Of a stretch of DNA of 64,000 bases, positions 19,076 through 23,808 are shown piece by piece (positions within the stretch are counted from its first letter, which is position 1; each line of letters opens with the position of its first letter). The translations under genes and the position numbers were made by a program. Below the pieces are notes generated by a model. It was not told the DNA's origin. It ran no database searches and worked only from the letters and a program-made list of their open reading frames with translations. The DNA comes from Anaerolineales bacterium (lineage in GTDB: Bacteria; Chloroflexota; Anaerolineae; Anaerolineales; UBA11579), in NCBI GenBank assembly GCA_035291465.1, contig DATDRZ010000129.1, positions 34,656 to 98,655 on the forward strand, given 5' to 3'.

Positions 19076-21769
19076 ATGGATAGCTTGAGTAGGGAATTGC
19101 TCCATCAGCCGGAACGCGACCTGGGCGAGGAAAATCGTGTCCCCTCGCAACTTCGGAAAGCAGAATTTTCCCTGTCCGCCAATTTATTGAGACTGGCGAC
19201 TTTATTCCTGGGGGCGTACGCGTTGGCGCTCACCATCTCGCCTGCGGTCCGTGATGGATCCTTTGATGGCTTTGGCGAACTGCGTTGGGCGCACTGGCTT
19301 GGCGTTATTGTTTGGGCTGCAGCCTTCTTTTTTCTTGATTACCAGGCCCGTCGTAGACTGCCCGGCCGCGATCCCTATCTGGTCCCGTTGGCCGGCTTGC
19401 TTTCAGGTTGGGGGCTGCTCACCATTTGGCGGCTCACTACCTGGTTTGGGTTCCGCCAAACGCTCTGGTTAGCGCTGTGTGTGGCACTATTTGCACTGGT
19501 ATTGCGCTGGAAAGATCAGATCCTCCCCGTCTTGCGCGGTTACAAATATTTGTGGCTGTTTGCAGGTTTTCTGATCACTGCACTCACTTTTCTCTTCGGC
19601 ACGAATCCCTCGGGTATCGGGCCGCGGTTGTGGCTTGGTGGCAATGGAATCTACTTCCAACCGTCGGAGATACTTAAACTTCTGCTCATCGCGTATCTGG
19701 CAGCATACCTTTCCGAACGCCAACCGCTGATGCCGGGTCTGCTGCCATTAATGGCTCCCACCGCATTGATGACGGGATTGGCTTTGCTGTTGCTGTTGAT
19801 TCAGCGTGATCTGGGCACGGCCTGGGTGTTCATCTTCATCTATACCATTGTCATTTACGCGGCTGCAGGCAAGCGGCGAGTGTTACTGGCTGCGTTGATT
19901 ATCTTAATCCTCGCCCTGGTCTCAGGCTATGAACTGGTCGGCCTGGTGCATCAACGCGTGGAGGCCTGGCTCAACCCCTGGGCAGACCCTACGGGTAGTG
20001 CCTATCAGATCATCCAGGGTTTGCTGGCCGTTGCATCTGGAGGTGTCTTTGGCCGCGGACCCGGCATGGGGCTGCCAGAAGTGGTGCCGGTCAATCATAG
20101 CGATTTCATCTTTACATCCATCGTTGAGGAGACTGGATTGCTCGGCGCCATAGGCTTGATAGTCCTGATCACGTTCCTATGTTTGCGCGCCCTGCGCATT
20201 TCTTTGCAAGCTCGCGATGCCTACCAGCGCTACCTGGCCATCGGCCTCAGCGCATACCTTGCCAGCCAGAGCCTACTGATCATAGGCGGCAATATCCGAA
20301 TGCTGCCGCTCACCGGGGTTACCTTGCCATTCGTATCCTACGGCGGCTCTTCGATGCTGGCATCCTTCGTTGCAGTACTTCTGCTTAGCCTAGTTAGCAA
20401 TGAAAGCATTAAGCGCTCGGCGCCCGTGGTGAATTGGCGCCCAACCATGGTGGTGGCCAGCATCCTGATCGTCGCTTTTGGTCTTGCAGCGGTCATCACC
20501 GGATGGTGGAGCGTTGTGCGAGGCCCGGACCTGCTTACCCGAGCCGACAACGTCCGTCGTGCCCAATCGGACAGCTTCGTCCCGCGCGGCGCGTTGATGG
20601 ATCGAGAAGGTCGCAGTATCAACGAAACAGGTGGAGGGCCTGGGGACTATTCCAGGGAATATCTGTATCCACAACTCACCAACGTGATCGGTTATTCCCA
20701 CCCAAATCTCGGCCAGTCAGGGTTGGAAGACGGCCTGGACCCAATCCTGCGCGGCGAAGAGTTTCAGCCTGCTTTCACCCTTTGGCTGAATCATCTGCTA
20801 TATGGGCAGCCGGCACCGGGCTTAAGCGTGCGACTCACACTTGATCTTGCCCTTGAACTTCGAGCTGCTGAATTGCTCAACGGCGAGCGGGGCGCGGCCG
20901 TGGTGATGGATGCGGAAACCGGCGAATTGTTGGCGATGGCCTCTGGACCGTCATTCGATCCGGCAACTCTCGACGAAAACTGGGGAGAACTCTCGTCCGC
21001 TCCGGATTCCCCGCTGCTCAATCGCGCTGCACAAGGTTCCTACACGCCGGGCTCGGCATTGGGTCCTTTTCTGCTTGCGGCGGCCAGGATGTATCGTGTC
21101 GAGCCAGCCGTGCCAACCGACCTCGGCTTTGCGGTTGATGGCCGGCGCTACGAATGCTCGCTCGAATCAGTAGATGTGGAAAGTTGGGCTCAACTTATCA
21201 AGTTCGGTTGCCCGGGGGCCTTAGCGCAATTGGGTATCGGTTTAGGCGGGGAGCGCCTGCTTGGCCTGTTCACGGATCTTGGCTTCTACTCCACCTCTCT
21301 ATTGCCGCTGGATCTCCACGCGGAACCTGCCCCAACCAGTCTGGACCGCCCCGAGGCTGCTGCGATTGGGCAGGATGAATTAAGCGTAAGCCCGTTGCAG
21401 ATTGCGCGAGCTGCATGCTCGCTCAGTAACTATGGCCACGTAGTTGCGCCTCAGATCACGCTGGCAATGCAGCAATCCAGCGGCCAGTTAGAGAACCTGC
21501 TGCCAGAGCCATCGCGAATAGAAACTTTCAGCCAAGGCGCGGCGGCCTCGGTGGCACAGAGTCTGGCTGTTAGGAACCTGCCGATCTGGGAGCTGACCGG
21601 CCAGGCCAATGGCGAAGACGGGCAAACCGTTACCTGGTACTTGGCTGGAACACTTTCTGGATTGACCCAGGATGAAAACGCGAGGTGCACTGTGATTCTG
21701 CTGGAAAGTGACCAACCTGCGCTGGCGCGTTCGATTGGCAGGGAGCTGTTGTTAGCCGCTATTGAATGA
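19076..21769 (+). CDS. Fused SEDS glycosyltransferase (RodA/FtsW family) and class B PBP (PbpA-like) with degenerate transpeptidase motifs
   Basis: SEDS blocks FQPSE, IQRDLGT, NHSDFIF and LPLTGVTLPFVSYGGSS. These are followed by an extra TM helix and PbpA-like blocks RGALMDREGRSI, VVMDAETGELLAMASGPSFDP, LLNRAAQGSYTPGSALG and AIGQDELSVSPLQ. Confidence 0.85.
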   Translation: MDSLSRELLHQPERDLGEENRVPSQLRKAEFSLSANLLRLATLFLGAYALALTISPAVRDGSFDGFGELRWAHWLGVIVWAAAFFFLDYQARRRLPGRDPYLVPLAGLLSGWGLLTIWRLTTWFGFRQTLWLALCVALFALVLRWKDQILPVLRGYKYLWLFAGFLITALTFLFGTNPSGIGPRLWLGGNGIYFQPSEILKLLLIAYLAAYLSERQPLMPGLLPLMAPTALMTGLALLLLLIQRDLGTAWVFIFIYTIVIYAAAGKRRVLLAALIILILALVSGYELVGLVHQRVEAWLNPWADPTGSAYQIIQGLLAVASGGVFGRGPGMGLPEVVPVNHSDFIFTSIVEETGLLGAIGLIVLITFLCLRALRISLQARDAYQRYLAIGLSAYLASQSLLIIGGNIRMLPLTGVTLPFVSYGGSSMLASFVAVLLLSLVSNESIKRSAPVVNWRPTMVVASILIVAFGLAAVITGWWSVVRGPDLLTRADNVRRAQSDSFVPRGALMDREGRSINETGGGPGDYSREYLYPQLTNVIGYSHPNLGQSGLEDGLDPILRGEEFQPAFTLWLNHLLYGQPAPGLSVRLTLDLALELRAAELLNGERGAAVVMDAETGELLAMASGPSFDPATLDENWGELSSAPDSPLLNRAAQGSYTPGSALGPFLLAAARMYRVEPAVPTDLGFAVDGRRYECSLESVDVESWAQLIKFGCPGALAQLGIGLGGERLLGLFTDLGFYSTSLLPLDLHAEPAPTSLDRPEAAAIGQDELSVSPLQIARAACSLSNYGHVVAPQITLAMQQSSGQLENLLPEPSRIETFSQGAAASVAQSLAVRNLPIWELTGQANGEDGQTVTWYLAGTLSGLTQDENARCTVILLESDQPALARSIGRELLLAAIE

Positions 21770-21794: not shown

Positions 21795-23009
21795 TCACAT
21801 CTCCACTCTTACGAATCTTCGCTTGCCCACTTGAAGGACCCCGGGGCCGGGGAAGGTCGCCACAGGATCTTCCAGGGTCTTGCCGTCCAGGCGCACCCCG
21901 CCTTGCTCGATCAGGCGGCGCGCTTCGCTTTTGCTCTTTACAAGTTTCGCCCCCATCAGTACATCCAAAACCGTGTGCTTTGCGCTCGCCTTGAACTCCG
22001 GCATCTCTTCTGGGACGTCGCCTTCCTGAAAGACACGGGCGAAGGTCTCCCGCGCTTCCTTTGCCGATTGATCTCCATAAAAGATCTCGGTGATCTCAGT
22101 GGCTAGCTCCACTTTCGCGTCACGGGGATGCAGGCTGTTATCAGCCAGCGCCTTTTCCTTGGCGGCGATCTGGCCGGCGGTCCAGCGCGTTGTAAGGCGC
22201 ATGTACGCGCCCATGGCGATGTCAGGCACGCTCATCACTTTGCCGAACATGTCGTTGGCATCGGTGTTAAGCGGAATGTGATTGCCCAGCGATTTGCTCA
22301 TGCGGATCACTCCATCAGTGCCGGGCAGGATGCCCATGATGATGCCGATGTTGGGTTTGGCGCCCAAAGCAGTCATCAGCTTGCGCCCGGCGGTAATGAT
22401 GTTGAAGAGTTGGTCGGTGCCACCCACCTGCACATCCGCCTTCAAAACGTAGGCATCGTAAGCTTGCATGATGGAGTAAAAAGTCTCGTGCAGGTAGATC
22501 GGATCACCTTTTTCCCAGCGCAGGTGGAAATTCTCGCGGGTGAGGAATTGCTGGATGGTGAAATTCGATGCGAATCTGATCAAGTCGGCAAACGTCACTT
22601 TGGAAAGCCATTCGCCGTTATAACGCACATCGGTCTTGTCACGTTCCAGCACGCGGAAAGCCTGCTCCGCATACGTTCGCGCGTTTTCCTCAACTTGTTC
22701 CTGGGAAAGCAGCGGGCGCAGCCTGTCTTGATCGGACGGATCTCCAATAAGAGATGTGTACGTTCCCACGACGAAAATAACGTGATGTCCGAGATCCTGG
22801 AACTGACGCAGCTTGCGCAATGGAATGGTGTGGCCCAGGTGCAAGTCTGTTGTGCGCGGGTCGATGCCCAGGTACACGCGCAGGTTGTTTCCGGTCTTCT
22901 CGGCTTCAAGCAACCGTGTACGCAGCTCCGCTTCCATGGCGCTGCGGAGTTGTTCGTCGCCGTATTCAGTGCCCTGCATCAACGTGGCTACTTGTGCATC
23001 GATATTCAT
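21795..23009 (-). CDS. tyrS: Tyrosine--tRNA ligase
   Basis: HLGH (HIGH) and RMSKS (KMSKS) motifs with a C-terminal S4 domain. ATG 23009 is preceded by GAGGAG. The TTG at 23021 lies inside the SD. Confidence 0.95.
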   Translation of the reverse strand: MNIDAQVATLMQGTEYGDEQLRSAMEAELRTRLLEAEKTGNNLRVYLGIDPRTTDLHLGHTIPLRKLRQFQDLGHHVIFVVGTYTSLIGDPSDQDRLRPLLSQEQVEENARTYAEQAFRVLERDKTDVRYNGEWLSKVTFADLIRFASNFTIQQFLTRENFHLRWEKGDPIYLHETFYSIMQAYDAYVLKADVQVGGTDQLFNIITAGRKLMTALGAKPNIGIIMGILPGTDGVIRMSKSLGNHIPLNTDANDMFGKVMSVPDIAMGAYMRLTTRWTAGQIAAKEKALADNSLHPRDAKVELATEITEIFYGDQSAKEARETFARVFQEGDVPEEMPEFKASAKHTVLDVLMGAKLVKSKSEARRLIEQGGVRLDGKTLEDPVATFPGPGVLQVGKRRFVRVEM

Positions 23010-23026
23010 ACGTCTCCTCAATCAGC

Positions 23027-23119
23027 AACCTTGCGAAGGGTTAATACAAAAGACTGATTGCAAGTCCGGCCCATCCCCCTTCGCGCGGCTTAAGGTCAGG
23101 GCAGGCTCATCGCAAGGTT
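23027..23119. repeat. Palindrome-flanked dispersed repeat, copy A (AACCTTGCGAAGG...TCGCAAGGTT) in the tyrS 5' leader
   Basis: Termini are reverse complements. The internal ...TCAGGGCAGGCTCaTCGCAAGGTT is shared with copy B at 58383..58467. Confidence 0.7.
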
Positions 23120-23124
23120 ATGTT

Positions 23125-23154
23125 AAACAACAGCGCCCTCGTGGGCGAGGGCGC
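23125..23154 (-). terminator. Intrinsic terminator-like hairpin inside the tyrS leader (attenuator candidate)
   Basis: Minus strand reads GCGCCCTCG-CCCA-CGAGGGCGC followed by TGTTGTTT. An upstream GCGAGGG (23211..23217) can pair alternatively with CCCTCGC of the 5' arm. Confidence 0.55.
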
Positions 23155-23182
23155 GCAACCAGACCGTCGCCAGAGGTTCGGT

Positions 23183-23224
23183 TCAGGTCTGATAATAAGA
23201 GGAAAGAAAACCCTCGCGCAACAT
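23183..23224 (-). CDS. Candidate leaderless leader peptide MLREGFLSSYYQT (tandem Tyr codons) upstream of tyrS
   Basis: ATG lies 8 nt downstream of a TGCTATAAT extended -10. Codons 10-11 are TAT TAT, stop is TGA, and the terminator hairpin starts about 30 nt downstream. Confidence 0.35.
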   Translation of the reverse strand: MLREGFLSSYYQT

Positions 23225-23232
23225 TAAACGGC

Positions 23233-23256
23233 ATTATAGCATGCGTATGCTATAAT
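23233..23256. promoter_or_regulatory. Palindromic divergent promoter core: two back-to-back extended -10 boxes (TGCTATAAT) for tyrS (minus) and HNH (plus)
   Basis: ATTATAGCAT-GCGT-ATGCTATAAT is a perfect 10-bp inverted repeat. Confidence 0.55.
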
Positions 23257-23292
23257 CTCGCCTGTTAATCAGGCGCCCGACGCGCCGACCTT

Positions 23293-23808
23293 ATGGAGAG
23301 CCATCTTAAGGAACCTGTCCTTGTCCTCAACGCGAATTACGAACCGCTGAACGTCTGCACCATCCGGCGAGCCGTGGGTTTGATCTTCGCCGATAAGGCC
23401 TCCATGCTAGTCAACGGCCGCGGGGAGATTCACACCGCCCACGCTATGTTCCCCGCCCCATCTGTCATCCGCCTGGAGCGCATGATCAAGCGCCCCCGCC
23501 CCAGTGTAAAGCTGAACAAGCAGGAAGTGTTCCGACGGGATAATTACACCTGCCAGTACTGCGGCCGCAGCGATCTAGACTTGACATTGGATCACCTAAT
23601 CCCCCGTCGCCTAGGCGGCAGGCATAGTTGGGACAATTTGGTGACCGCCTGCAGGGTCTGCAACCACCGTAAAGGGGGTCGCATGGCCGACAGCGCCGGA
23701 ATGAGGCTAATGAACTATCCTATGGCGCCAACCGCATCGGCACAGTATATATTCGGACGCTATCTAAATCAGAACCAAGACTGGGGAAACTACATCCAAG
23801 GTTGGTAA
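23293..23808 (+). CDS. HNH endonuclease
   Basis: CQYCGR...LTLDHLIPRRLGG...WDNLVTACRVCNHRKG HNH/zinc motif. Confidence 0.85.
   Translation: MESHLKEPVLVLNANYEPLNVCTIRRAVGLIFADKASMLVNGRGEIHTAHAMFPAPSVIRLERMIKRPRPSVKLNKQEVFRRDNYTCQYCGRSDLDLTLDHLIPRRLGGRHSWDNLVTACRVCNHRKGGRMADSAGMRLMNYPMAPTASAQYIFGRYLNQNQDWGNYIQGW

What the first reader, a model, noticed from the sequence alone, without database searches (positions are those of the whole stretch)
23125..23238. Candidate ribosome-mediated attenuator for tyrS: leaderless 13-codon uORF with tandem Tyr codons plus intrinsic terminator
On the minus strand an extended -10 (TGCTATAAT, 23241..23233) is followed 8 nt later by an ATG at 23224. That ATG opens the uORF ATG TTG CGC GAG GGT TTT CTT TCC TCT TAT TAT CAG ACC TGA, which encodes MLREGFLSSYYQT.

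About 30 nt after the stop lies a 9-bp GC hairpin with a U-rich tail (GCGCCCUCG-CCCA-CGAGGGCGC-UGUUGUUU, 23154..23125). GCGAGGG within uORF codons 3-5 can pair with CCCUCGC of the terminator 5' arm, forming an anti-terminator. AUCAGACC, which overlaps the second Tyr codon, pairs with GGUCUGGU just before the terminator.

The 8-nt spacing from -10 to ATG matches the leaderless architecture seen at other genes in this window. Amino-acid-specific leader peptides are classical for biosynthetic operons and for pheST. A Tyr-Tyr leader on a tyrosyl-tRNA synthetase in this lineage would be unusual, because these genes are normally expected to be T-box controlled. I cannot deduce from the sequence alone in which direction the switch acts.
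Basis: partly seen in the sequence, partly recalled or inferred. Interest (0 to 1): 0.7.

Follow-up and report, generated by a model that had tools for sequence, protein, structure and literature searches.

The report
Tyrosine-codon attenuator upstream of tyrS
The tyrosyl-tRNA synthetase gene of this Anaerolineae (Chloroflexota) bacterium is preceded by a tiny tyrosine-rich reading frame and a terminator hairpin, apparently so that a ribosome slowed by lack of charged tyrosine tRNA lets transcription run on; the same design is found in about two thirds of related genomes but has not been tested experimentally.

Summary
These are the extended -10 box (23241..23233, minus strand), the ATG 8 nt later (23224), the 13-codon uORF MLREGFLSSYYQT, and the 9-bp GC hairpin with a U tail (23154..23125).

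The design recurs across Anaerolineae. About 54 of 81 tyrS leaders from genomes carry it, and a covariance model finds it in 51 of 80 independent metagenomic loci. The shared parts are:
- a -10 box,
- an ATG 5-9 nt later,
- a 9-22 codon ORF with 2-4 Tyr codons placed 2-4 codons before the stop,
- a terminator 17-28 nt after the stop.

No T-box is present.

It is the segment just after the uORF stop, which pairs with the terminator loop and the top of its 3' arm. This pairing covaries strongly.

The geometry gives the direction of the switch. A ribosome stalled at the Tyr codons leaves that segment free, so transcription reads through. A ribosome at the stop codon masks it, so transcription terminates.

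In about a third of loci the Tyr sensor is instead the C-terminal tail of a full-length upstream gene.

This is a new member of a known kind, with no transcript or experimental evidence yet.

The parts
23233..23241 (-). Extended -10 promoter box TGCTATAAT for the leader transcript. The predicted transcription start lies at or 1-2 nt before the ATG.
   Evidence: Read directly. In 37 uORF-type leaders a TAnnnT box lies 5-9 nt before the start codon, and in 23 of them the spacing is 6 nt. No transcript data are available.
23183..23224 (-). Leaderless leader ORF of 13 codons plus stop, encoding MLREGFLSSYYQT.
   Evidence: Equivalent ORFs of 9-22 codons (median 14) are found in 36 genome loci and 30 metagenome loci.
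23192..23197 (-). Tandem Tyr codons TAT TAT, the proposed sensor, two codons before the stop.
   Evidence: Tyr makes up 21.4% of leader residues versus 2.7% in TyrS. In-frame TAY triplets number 143, against 1 and 8 in the other two frames. The TAT codon is favoured: 71% in the sensor versus 42% in the tyrS coding sequence, p = 3e-10.
23186..23193 (-). Region 1: AUCAGACC, which pairs with GGUCUGGU (23165..23158) in untranslated RNA. This is a possible anti-antiterminator.
   Evidence: The helix is present in the minimum-free-energy fold of the naked leader. It is specific to this window. Across loci the own-versus-cross signal is weak (z = -3.2).
23159..23176 (-). Antiterminator strand (segment A): CCUCUGGCGACGGUCUGG. 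GGCGA pairs with UCGCC (end of the 5' arm plus loop, 23148..23144). CCUC pairs with GAGG (top of the 3' arm, 23140..23137).
   Evidence: Stepwise folds of the growing transcript give -13.0 and then -18.2 kcal/mol before the 3' arm is complete. The homologous segment covaries with the terminator loop and 3' arm in relatives.
23125..23154 (-). Intrinsic terminator: 9-bp stem GCGCCCUCG/CGAGGGCGC, loop CCCA, tail UGUUGUUU.
   Evidence: The isolated hairpin folds at -18.2 kcal/mol. In alignment A1 the stem is 93% paired with compensatory changes.
23027..23119 (-). Additional stem AACCUUGCGA/UCGCAAGGUU enclosing 73 nt, lying between the terminator and the Shine-Dalgarno sequence. Role unknown.
   Evidence: the fold z-score is only -0.95. 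Locus L001 has a shorter related hairpin.
21795..23009 (-). tyrS, the regulated gene (404 aa), with Shine-Dalgarno sequence GAGGAG at 23019..23014.
   Evidence: tRNA-synt_1b, E = 8e-58.

Best explanation
This is a ribosome-mediated (leader-peptide) transcription attenuator that adjusts tyrS transcription to the supply of charged tRNA-Tyr.

**Proposed sequence of events:**
1. Transcription starts at, or 1-2 nt before, the AUG at 23224. A 70S ribosome translates the 13-codon leader close behind RNA polymerase.
2. If Tyr-tRNA(Tyr) is scarce, the ribosome stalls with UAU UAU (23197..23192) in its A site. Its front edge then reaches only about the stop codon.
3. The segment after the stop (23176..23159) is therefore free. 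It pairs with the end of the terminator's 5' arm, the loop and the first bases of the 3' arm as they emerge.
4. The terminator hairpin cannot form, and polymerase reads on into tyrS.
5. If Tyr-tRNA is plentiful, the ribosome reaches the UGA and covers about 10-12 nt beyond it. These include the bases that would hold the 3' arm. The hairpin at 23154..23133 forms and transcription stops at the U tail.

**Shown:** the sequence elements, their conservation, the Tyr specificity, and the covariation of the two alternative helices.

**Inferred:** the transcription start, translation of the leader, the direction of the switch, and actual termination.
For: **Anatomy.** All parts are confirmed in the window.

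**Conservation.**
- Of 80 Anaerolineae tyrS loci plus the window, 37 have a -10 / ATG / short ORF / terminator leader with at least 2 Tyr codons near the stop.
- A further 17 have the same terminator module directly after a Tyr-rich gene tail.

**Tyr specificity.**
- Tyr accounts for 104 of 486 leader residues.
- A residue-blind scan of all loci gave 78 hits, of which 58 are Tyr-rich. No other residue is enriched.

**Antiterminator covariation.**
- Own-partner duplexes average -17.9 kcal/mol versus -14.1 kcal/mol for cross-species pairings (z = -8.5, 0 of 5000 permutations).
- On an unfitted MAFFT alignment the helix is 76% paired, versus 38-57% when the partners are slid. The covariation score is 0.33 versus at most 0.20, and 0 of 500 shuffles reach it.
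- On an independent metagenome set the helix is 83% paired, the score is 0.46, and 7 of 10 pairs show changes on both sides.
- L041 and L078 use an unrelated terminator sequence but keep the same logic, including a compensatory change.

**Specificity of location.** The covariance model hits once per locus, always just upstream of tyrS, across 0.86 Mb of sequence.

**Geometry.**
- The last Tyr codon lies a median of 3 codons before the stop.
- Segment A spans bases 5-18 counted from the first base of the stop codon, and sequesters a median of 5 bases of the 3' arm.

**Switch simulation** (54 loci, folded when 4-5 nt of the 3' arm have emerged):

| Condition | 3' arm paired to segment A | 3' arm paired to the 5' arm |
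|---|---|---|
| Segment A free | 31-33 loci | 4-5 loci |
| 10 nt after the stop masked | 3-5 loci | 14-26 loci |

With 10 nt after the stop masked, the complete terminator forms in 53 of 54 loci.

**No T-box at tyrS**.
Against: - **No transcript evidence.** No RNA run holds this organism, and metatranscriptome contigs for a relative were uninformative.
- **Equilibrium favours the terminator.** In the window it is more stable even with segment A free (-25.4 versus about -18 kcal/mol). The same holds in 41 of 54 loci. Antitermination must therefore be a kinetic trap, as it is in the E. coli trp leader (my own knowledge).
- **The window is a weak example.** It has the minimum of two Tyr codons, an 8-nt rather than 6-nt spacing from -10 to ATG, an interrupted U tract (UGUUGUUU), and 123 nt with an extra hairpin before tyrS.
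- **Counts overstate independent events.** The sequences are phylogenetically related.
- **Not universal.** About 22 of 80 relatives lack the element and use a plain promoter with a Shine-Dalgarno sequence.
Confidence: 0.8

Rival explanations
1. The short ORF and hairpin form an unregulated unit: a small gene or spurious ORF with its own terminator. tyrS is transcribed from a separate promoter downstream of 23125, so nothing is sensed.
For: In the window, 123 nt separate the terminator from tyrS and contain an AT-rich stretch (TTGTATTAA) and a hairpin. Some relatives also have about 100 nt in this position.
Against: - The promoter scan finds no sigma-70-like site on the minus strand between 23125 and 23009.
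- In most relatives only 20-50 nt lie between the terminator and the tyrS Shine-Dalgarno sequence.
- This reading does not explain why the ORF is enriched for Tyr and no other residue, why it always sits before tyrS, or why segment A covaries with the terminator.
Confidence: 0.06
2. The element is an untranslated RNA switch. The UAU/UAC triplets are read by tRNA-Tyr (T-box-like) or by a protein, not by a ribosome.
For: Tyr triplets lie upstream of a terminator/antiterminator pair, as in the Bacillus tyrS T-box. T-boxes do exist in this lineage, at ileS in L007 and L008.
Against: - No T-box match is found even at E = 10.
- The leader is about 100 nt and has no Stem I or T-box sequence.
- The triplets are always in frame with an ATG placed at leaderless distance from a -10 box and with a stop at a fixed distance from segment A. 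Counts are 143 in frame versus 1 and 8 out of frame.
- TAT and TAC interchange as synonymous codons, and other codons interrupt the run (YAY, YSY, YGYY).
- In 17 loci the triplets are the last codons of a conserved protein-coding gene.
Confidence: 0.04
3. It is a ribosome-dependent attenuator, but either it has the opposite polarity (stalling favours termination) or it reports general translation capacity or growth rate rather than tyrosine.
For: - The direction is inferred only from footprint geometry.
- The terminator is the equilibrium structure in most loci.
- In this design any slowing of the leading ribosome would also raise read-through.
Against: - Tyr codons sit where a stalled ribosome leaves segment A free.
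- The stop codon sits where a terminating ribosome masks the half of segment A that holds the 3' arm.
- The exclusive Tyr enrichment before the Tyr-tRNA ligase gene argues for a specific signal.
- More synthetase when charging is low is the logic of the pheST attenuator and of T-boxes (established knowledge; PMC1262725).
Confidence: 0.07

Closest known systems
E. coli pheST attenuator (pheM leader peptide) and the classical trp/his/phe leader-peptide attenuators
   Same: All have a short leader ORF rich in codons for the cognate amino acid, an intrinsic terminator, and a mutually exclusive antiterminator chosen by the position of the ribosome. pheST is the precedent for an aminoacyl-tRNA synthetase gene controlled in this way (cited in PMC1262725).
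   Different: - The amino acid and gene differ: Tyr and tyrS.
- The leader start is leaderless, with no Shine-Dalgarno sequence.
- The antiterminator strand pairs mainly with the terminator loop and the top of the 3' arm, rather than only with the 5' arm.
- A region 1:2 helix is not generally conserved.
- No Rfam leader family matches.
Predicted attenuators of trpS and leuS in Streptomyces (Seliverstov et al. 2005, PMC1262725)
   Same: These are comparative-genomics predictions of classical attenuators upstream of aminoacyl-tRNA synthetase genes outside the Proteobacteria.
   Different: They are in a different phylum and sense different amino acids. That study found no RNA element for tyrosine genes.
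Leaderless leader peptides of Deinococcus deserti (de Groot et al. 2014, PMC4007540)
   Same: [quoted passage not shown] An example is cysS, with a 10-aa peptide containing two Cys. The authors propose these as transcription attenuators.
   Different: They are in a different phylum. The list of 14 cases (their Table S9) is not held, so I could not check whether tyrS is among them. No covariation analysis of an antiterminator is given in the text I read.
Mycobacterial polycysteine leaderless short ORFs (Canestrari et al., bioRxiv 10.1101/834739)
   Same: These are leaderless sensory short ORFs in which ribosome stalling at a run of one codon type controls the downstream genes.
   Different: [quoted passage not shown] The element here carries an intrinsic transcription terminator with a U tract.
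T-box riboswitch of Bacillus subtilis tyrS (RF00230)
   Same: The regulated gene, the physiological signal (tRNA-Tyr charging) and the output (terminator versus antiterminator) are the same.
   Different: In a T-box the sensor is direct binding of uncharged tRNA to an RNA of about 200 nt. No such RNA is present here. In this lineage a T-box was found at ileS, not at tyrS.

Membership tests
Leader-peptide (ribosome-mediated) transcription attenuator | A short ORF with a usable translation start lies upstream of the regulated gene. | tested here: met
   The ATG lies 8 nt after the extended -10 box. The same architecture, with 5-9 nt spacing, occurs in 37 genome leaders and 30 metagenome leaders. 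Translation itself has not been shown.
Leader-peptide (ribosome-mediated) transcription attenuator | The leader ORF is enriched in codons for the amino acid related to the regulated gene. | tested here: met
   The window has YY. Across leaders, Tyr is 21.4% of residues versus 2.7% in TyrS. In a residue-blind scan Tyr is the only enriched residue, with 58 of 78 hits Tyr-rich.
Leader-peptide (ribosome-mediated) transcription attenuator | An intrinsic terminator lies between the leader ORF and the structural gene. | tested here: met
   The window has a 9-bp GC stem with a U-rich tail. The stem is 93% paired, with compensatory changes, across relatives.
Leader-peptide (ribosome-mediated) transcription attenuator | An alternative antiterminator helix excludes the terminator and is placed so that the ribosome's position selects between them. 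| tested here: met
   Covariation of segment A with the terminator loop and 3' arm is shown. The window's own helix reaches -18.2 kcal/mol before the 3' arm is complete.
Leader-peptide (ribosome-mediated) transcription attenuator | A region 1:2 (pause or anti-antiterminator) helix ensures termination when the leader is not translated. | tested here: inconclusive
   The window has AUCAGACC/GGUCUGGU. Across loci the own-versus-cross signal is only weak (z = -3.2, mean -8.9 kcal/mol).
Leader-peptide (ribosome-mediated) transcription attenuator | Read-through responds to the supply of the amino acid or charged tRNA. | not testable with these tools
   No usable RNA data were found. Reporter assays or term-seq are needed.
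T-box riboswitch (RF00230) | Stem I with a specifier loop, the conserved T-box sequence, and an antiterminator bulge that binds the tRNA acceptor end. | tested here: not met
   There is no Rfam match in the window at the gathering threshold, and none in 22900..23400 at E up to 10. In 20 relatives searched, T-boxes were found only at ileS in L007 and L008.
Rfam leader-peptide families (Trp, His, Leu, Thr, Phe leaders) | Sequence and structure match to a curated covariance model. | tested here: not met
   No match to any of the 4227 families.
Leaderless sensory short ORFs (D. deserti leader peptides; mycobacterial polyCys short ORFs) | [quoted passage not shown] | not testable with these tools
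   The only support is indirect. The spacing from -10 to ATG is 8 nt here and 6 nt in 23 of 37 relatives, and there is no room for a Shine-Dalgarno sequence.

The most novel reading that the evidence does not exclude
**The reading.** The tyrS attenuator module does not need a dedicated leader peptide. In about a third of Anaerolineae loci the sensor appears to be the last codons (..YY(Y)-A-R-x-stop) of a full-length gene. I call this gene X. It encodes a conserved membrane protein of about 165-185 aa and lies directly upstream of tyrS. The same covarying antiterminator/terminator pair follows it at the same distance.

**Implications if true:**
- The leading ribosome stays tightly coupled to RNA polymerase over about 500 nt in this lineage.
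- Leaderless leader peptides such as the one in this window, whose relatives end YYY-[AVT]-[RHK]-x like gene X, may be relics of, or interchangeable with, that gene tail.

**Evidence so far:**
- Gene X ends with at least 2 Tyr in 16 of 17 loci where the terminator follows it directly.
- It ends with at least 2 Tyr in 0 of 6 loci where a separate uORF intervenes (Fisher p = 7e-5).
- Antiterminator covariation holds within the gene X class alone (z = -5.2).
Probability: 0.5. Interest if true: 0.72.

Novelty: new member of a known kind. Interest (0 to 1): 0.6.

Why it matters
**A T-box-like function without a T-box.** An aminoacyl-tRNA synthetase gene in Chloroflexota is controlled by a translated Tyr-codon sensor, although T-boxes exist in the same lineage at ileS. 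I found no report of a Tyr/tyrS leader-peptide attenuator in the searched literature.

**A useful data set.** About 100 natural variants now have a covarying antiterminator. That gives a clean basis for:
- an Rfam-style family,
- annotating tiny unannotated ORFs in Anaerolineae genomes assembled from metagenomes,
- studying leaderless translation and transcription-translation coupling in a barely cultivated phylum.

**An unusual variant.** If the gene-tail variant is functional, it would be a case in which the final codons of a real protein-coding gene serve as an amino acid sensor.

Tried and rejected
- **Rfam.** No family matches in the window or the leader. This excludes a T-box and the known leader families.
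GCGAGGG in codons 3-5 paired with the 5' arm shows no cross-species signal (z = -0.1), so I rejected it as the conserved switch.
- **RNA evidence.** The window's organism appears only in soil and sediment DNA runs. No RNA run holds it. RNA runs for L053 and L004 share only 5-16% of sampled words with them, and their contigs come from relatives about 90% alike. They gave no 5' or 3' ends.
- **Close relatives.** A metagenome scan for closer relatives, which could have tested the window-specific CAGACC/GGUCUG helix, returned nothing above 78% TyrS identity. The set was used instead as an independent validation set.
- **Equilibrium folding alone does not show a switch.** The terminator is the minimum-free-energy structure in 41 of 54 loci even with segment A free. 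Truncated-transcript folds were needed to see the switch.
- **The extra hairpin at 23119..23027.** It folds no better than shuffled sequence (z = -0.95), so I assign it no role.
- **D. deserti Table S9.** The table of leader peptides is not held, so possible overlap with tyrS there is unknown.

Full report
**Observation**

On the minus strand the window reads as follows:
- TGCTATAAT at 23241..23233;
- 8 nt of spacer, then ATG at 23224;
- the ORF ATG TTG CGC GAG GGT TTT CTT TCC TCT TAT TAT CAG ACC TGA, encoding MLREGFLSSYYQT, with its stop at 23185..23183;
- a 28-nt spacer;
- the hairpin GCGCCCTCG-CCCA-CGAGGGCGC at 23154..23133, followed by TGTTGTTT to 23125.

The terminator scan reports the hairpin independently, with 9 pairs of which 8 are G-C. 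tyrS (404 aa; tRNA-synt_1b plus an S4 domain) starts at 23009 behind a GAGGAG Shine-Dalgarno sequence. The next gene upstream is a divergent HNH endonuclease gene at 23293..23808 on the plus strand. The hairpin therefore sits inside the tyrS leader and is not the end of another gene. Rfam finds nothing in the whole window, and nothing in 22900..23400 even at E = 10, so there is no T-box or known leader family.

**Relatives**

TyrS places the window in the Anaerolineae (Chloroflexota). The best genome match is 78% identical. Reading the tyrS upstream regions of 80 species representatives showed the same design again and again. Examples of the leader peptides are:
- L001: MHAFCAYYYPAAH
- L013: MLLSGFHHAYYALN
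- L016: MLDKKIYAYYYCNN
- L045: MSGFKSVNKYYYYTHT
- L053: MNTCTHAYYYLP

Each begins 5-9 nt after a TATAAT-like box and ends 17-28 nt before a GC hairpin with a U run.

Pooling two terminator finders, 37 leaders including the window are of this uORF type. Their properties are:

| Property | Value |
|---|---|
| ORF length | median 14 codons, range 9-22 |
| Spacing from -10 to ATG | 6 nt in 23 of 37 |
| Tyr share of leader residues | 104 of 486 (21.4%), versus 2.7% in TyrS |
| TAY triplets in the 30 nt before the stop | 143 in frame, versus 1 and 8 in the other frames |

A scan that ignores residue identity (-10 box, start codon, 6-30 codon ORF, terminator) over all fetched loci gave 78 hits. Of these, 58 are Tyr-rich, and no other residue is enriched. 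In the window the same scan finds only this site convincingly. About 22 of the 80 genome loci have no such element and use a plain promoter with a Shine-Dalgarno sequence.

**The alternative helix**

The own-versus-cross-species duplex test gives z = -0.1.

What is conserved is a segment I call segment A. It begins 2-5 nt after the stop codon and is complementary to the last base or bases of the terminator's 5' arm, the loop, and the first ~5 bases of the 3' arm. Examples:

| Locus | Segment A | Terminator partner |
|---|---|---|
| L053 | CCCGCUGCGG | CCGCAGCGGG |
| L013 | CUGCAGUGGAG | CUCCACGGCAG |
| L075 | GCGAUGGUG | CAUCAUCGC |
| L001 | UCGCUGG | CCAGCGA |
| Window | CCUC-U-GGCGA | UCGCC-CAC-GAGG |

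The evidence that this helix is real:
- **Alignment-free test.** Each segment A pairs better with its own terminator than with those of other species: -17.9 versus -14.1 kcal/mol, z = -8.5, 0 of 5000 permutations. The result holds separately in both architectural classes (z = -7.5 and -5.2).
- **Unfitted MAFFT alignment (A1).** The 10-bp helix is 76% paired, versus 38-57% when the partners are slid. Five pairs change on both sides, and 0 of 500 shuffles reach the covariation score. The terminator stem itself is 93% paired.
- **Covariance model.** A model built with this helix hits exactly once per locus, always just upstream of tyrS on the coding strand. It hits 49 of 80 genome loci plus the window.
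- **Independent metagenome set.** The model hits 51 of 80 loci that were not used to build it. There the helix is 83% paired and 7 of 10 pairs show changes on both sides. Of the 51, 49 carry at least 2 Tyr codons before the stop.
- **Sequence turnover.** L041 and L078 have an unrelated terminator sequence (ACGCAUCAC...GUGAUGCGU). Segment A still matches the loop and 3' arm, including a G:C to A:U swap between the two loci.

**Direction of the switch**

Positions below count from the first base of the stop codon as 0.
- The paired part of segment A spans a median of positions 5-18, and the last Tyr codon lies a median of 3 codons before the stop, 2 in the window.
- From general knowledge, a bacterial ribosome covers roughly 12 nt beyond the first base of its A-site codon.
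- A ribosome waiting at the last Tyr codon therefore reaches about the stop codon and leaves segment A free.
- A ribosome at the stop codon covers about positions 0-12. That is the half of segment A which holds the 3' arm.

Folding truncated transcripts supports this. When 4-5 nt of the 3' arm have emerged:

| Condition | 3' arm paired to segment A | 3' arm paired to the 5' arm |
|---|---|---|
| Segment A free | 31-33 of 54 loci | 4-5 of 54 loci |
| 10 nt after the stop masked | 3-5 of 54 loci | 14-26 of 54 loci |

With the mask, the complete terminator forms in 53 of 54 loci.

In the window the antiterminator reaches -13.0 and then -18.2 kcal/mol before the 3' arm is complete. At equilibrium the terminator wins in the window and in 41 of 54 loci. 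Read-through must therefore rely on the antiterminator forming first. This is also true of the classical trp leader (my own knowledge).

The inferred logic is that scarce Tyr-tRNA causes a stall, the stall allows read-through, and more TyrRS is made. This is the same logic as pheST attenuation and T-boxes.

**Window-specific features**
- The spacer between the stop and the terminator is 28 nt, versus about 20 in relatives. The extra bases (CGGUCUGG) extend the antiterminator onto the 5' arm.
- The same bases pair with AUCAGACC, which overlaps the second Tyr, Gln and Thr codons, in untranslated RNA. It would act as a region 1:2 anti-antiterminator, but across loci support for such a helix is weak (z = -3.2).
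- Between the terminator and the Shine-Dalgarno sequence lie 123 nt with a 10-bp stem (23119..23110 with 23036..23027). Its fold is no better than shuffled sequence.

**The gene-tail variant**

In 17 genome loci, and about 19 metagenome hits, there is no uORF. Instead a conserved gene that I call gene X ends ..YY(Y)AR[DEQK]-stop at the usual distance from the same antiterminator/terminator module. Gene X encodes a protein of about 165-185 aa with two transmembrane helices and a weak bacterial PH-domain match.

Where gene X is followed by a separate uORF, it ends with a single Tyr. Tails with at least 2 Tyr occur in 16 of 17 loci of the first kind and 0 of 6 of the second (p = 7e-5). The tails of many uORFs (YYYVRP, YYYAHP, YYYYTRP, YYYARM) resemble the gene X tails.

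**Comparison with what is known**

- Leader-peptide attenuators of synthetase genes are known or predicted for pheST in gamma-proteobacteria and for trpS and leuS in Streptomyces (PMC1262725).
- Leaderless leader peptides before synthetase and amino acid genes were proposed in Deinococcus deserti (PMC4007540).
- Leaderless polyCys sensory ORFs in mycobacteria act on translation (10.1101/834739).
- Five full-text searches found no Tyr/tyrS leader-peptide attenuator and nothing for the Anaerolineae.
- T-boxes reported for Chloroflexi are at ileS and trp genes (PMC2494555). I found one at ileS in Thermanaerothrix.

The element meets every sequence-level defining feature of a leader-peptide attenuator. 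It fails the tests for a T-box and for the Rfam leader families. I file it as a new member of a known kind.

**Limits**

- No transcript or ribosome data exist for this organism or for close relatives.
- The transcription start, translation of the leader, termination and the tyrosine response are all inferred.
- Counts across loci include shared ancestry.

Noticed in passing
L006:2348-2960, and likewise L011, L012, L023, L030, L031, L034, L041, L046, L049, L054, L056, L071, L077, L078: There is no leader ORF in these loci. A conserved gene of about 165-185 aa, which I call gene X, encodes a two-transmembrane-helix protein with a weak bPH_6 match. It ends ..YY(Y)AR[DEQK]-stop at the usual distance from the same covarying antiterminator/terminator module before tyrS. 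Where a separate uORF follows gene X, it ends with a single Tyr.
   Followed up: partly
L018:2990-3012: Gene X ends GYYYEH-stop, and its stop codon overlaps the tyrS start codon (TATTATTATGAACATTGA). No terminator lies between them, which suggests a translationally coupled arrangement with the Tyr run sitting on the tyrS start.
   Followed up: no
L041:790-860 and L078 (about 100 nt upstream of tyrS): The terminator has an unrelated sequence (ACGCAUCAC...GUGAUGCGU). An upstream segment is still complementary to its loop and 3' arm, with a compensatory G:C to A:U difference between the two loci. The architecture is conserved while the sequence has turned over.
   Followed up: partly
L008:1593-1856 (-) and L007:1628-1892 (-): A T-box leader (RF00230, 98 and 93 bits) precedes ileS, divergent from tyrS, in Thermanaerothrix. 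Those two genomes lack the tyrS attenuator.
   Followed up: partly
window 23233-23258: Two extended -10 boxes lie back to back and form a palindrome, ATTATAGCAT-ACGC-ATGCTATAAT. One faces the HNH gene and the other the tyrS leader. The pair is conserved, with variable spacing, in L001-L005.
   Followed up: no
window 23027-23119 (-): A 10-bp stem, AACCUUGCGA/UCGCAAGGUU, encloses 73 nt between the terminator and the tyrS Shine-Dalgarno sequence. L001 has a shorter related hairpin. The fold z-score is only -0.95 and the role is unknown.
   Followed up: partly
uORF-type leaders in L001-L080: The last sense codon of the leader is Pro in 10 of 37 leaders. Pro-stop is known to slow peptide release, so this could prolong masking of the antiterminator by the terminating ribosome. 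That is my inference and is untested.
   Followed up: no
sensor codons of 54 loci, including window 23192-23197: Sensor Tyr codons are 71% TAT, versus 42% TAT in the tyrS coding sequences of the same loci (Fisher p = 3e-10). In the window the leader has TAT TAT, while tyrS has 3 TAT and 8 TAC.
   Followed up: partly
window 19076-21769 (+): An 897-aa ORF fuses an FtsW/RodA/SpoVE domain to a penicillin-binding transpeptidase domain. It is convergent with tyrS.
   Followed up: no
window 48124 (-), 9394 (-), 40164 (-), 58367 (-), 44905 (-), 16959 (+): Several long ORFs have a TATAAT- or TAGAAT-like box 6-9 nt before a candidate start codon. Nine of 44 long ORFs show it, against a chance rate of about 1.4% per position.
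   Followed up: partly
L009:2908-2980: A different upstream ORF, acidic and 82 aa long, ends ...EEDEY-stop. It is followed by the same antiterminator/terminator module before tyrS, with a single Tyr as its last codon.
   Followed up: no
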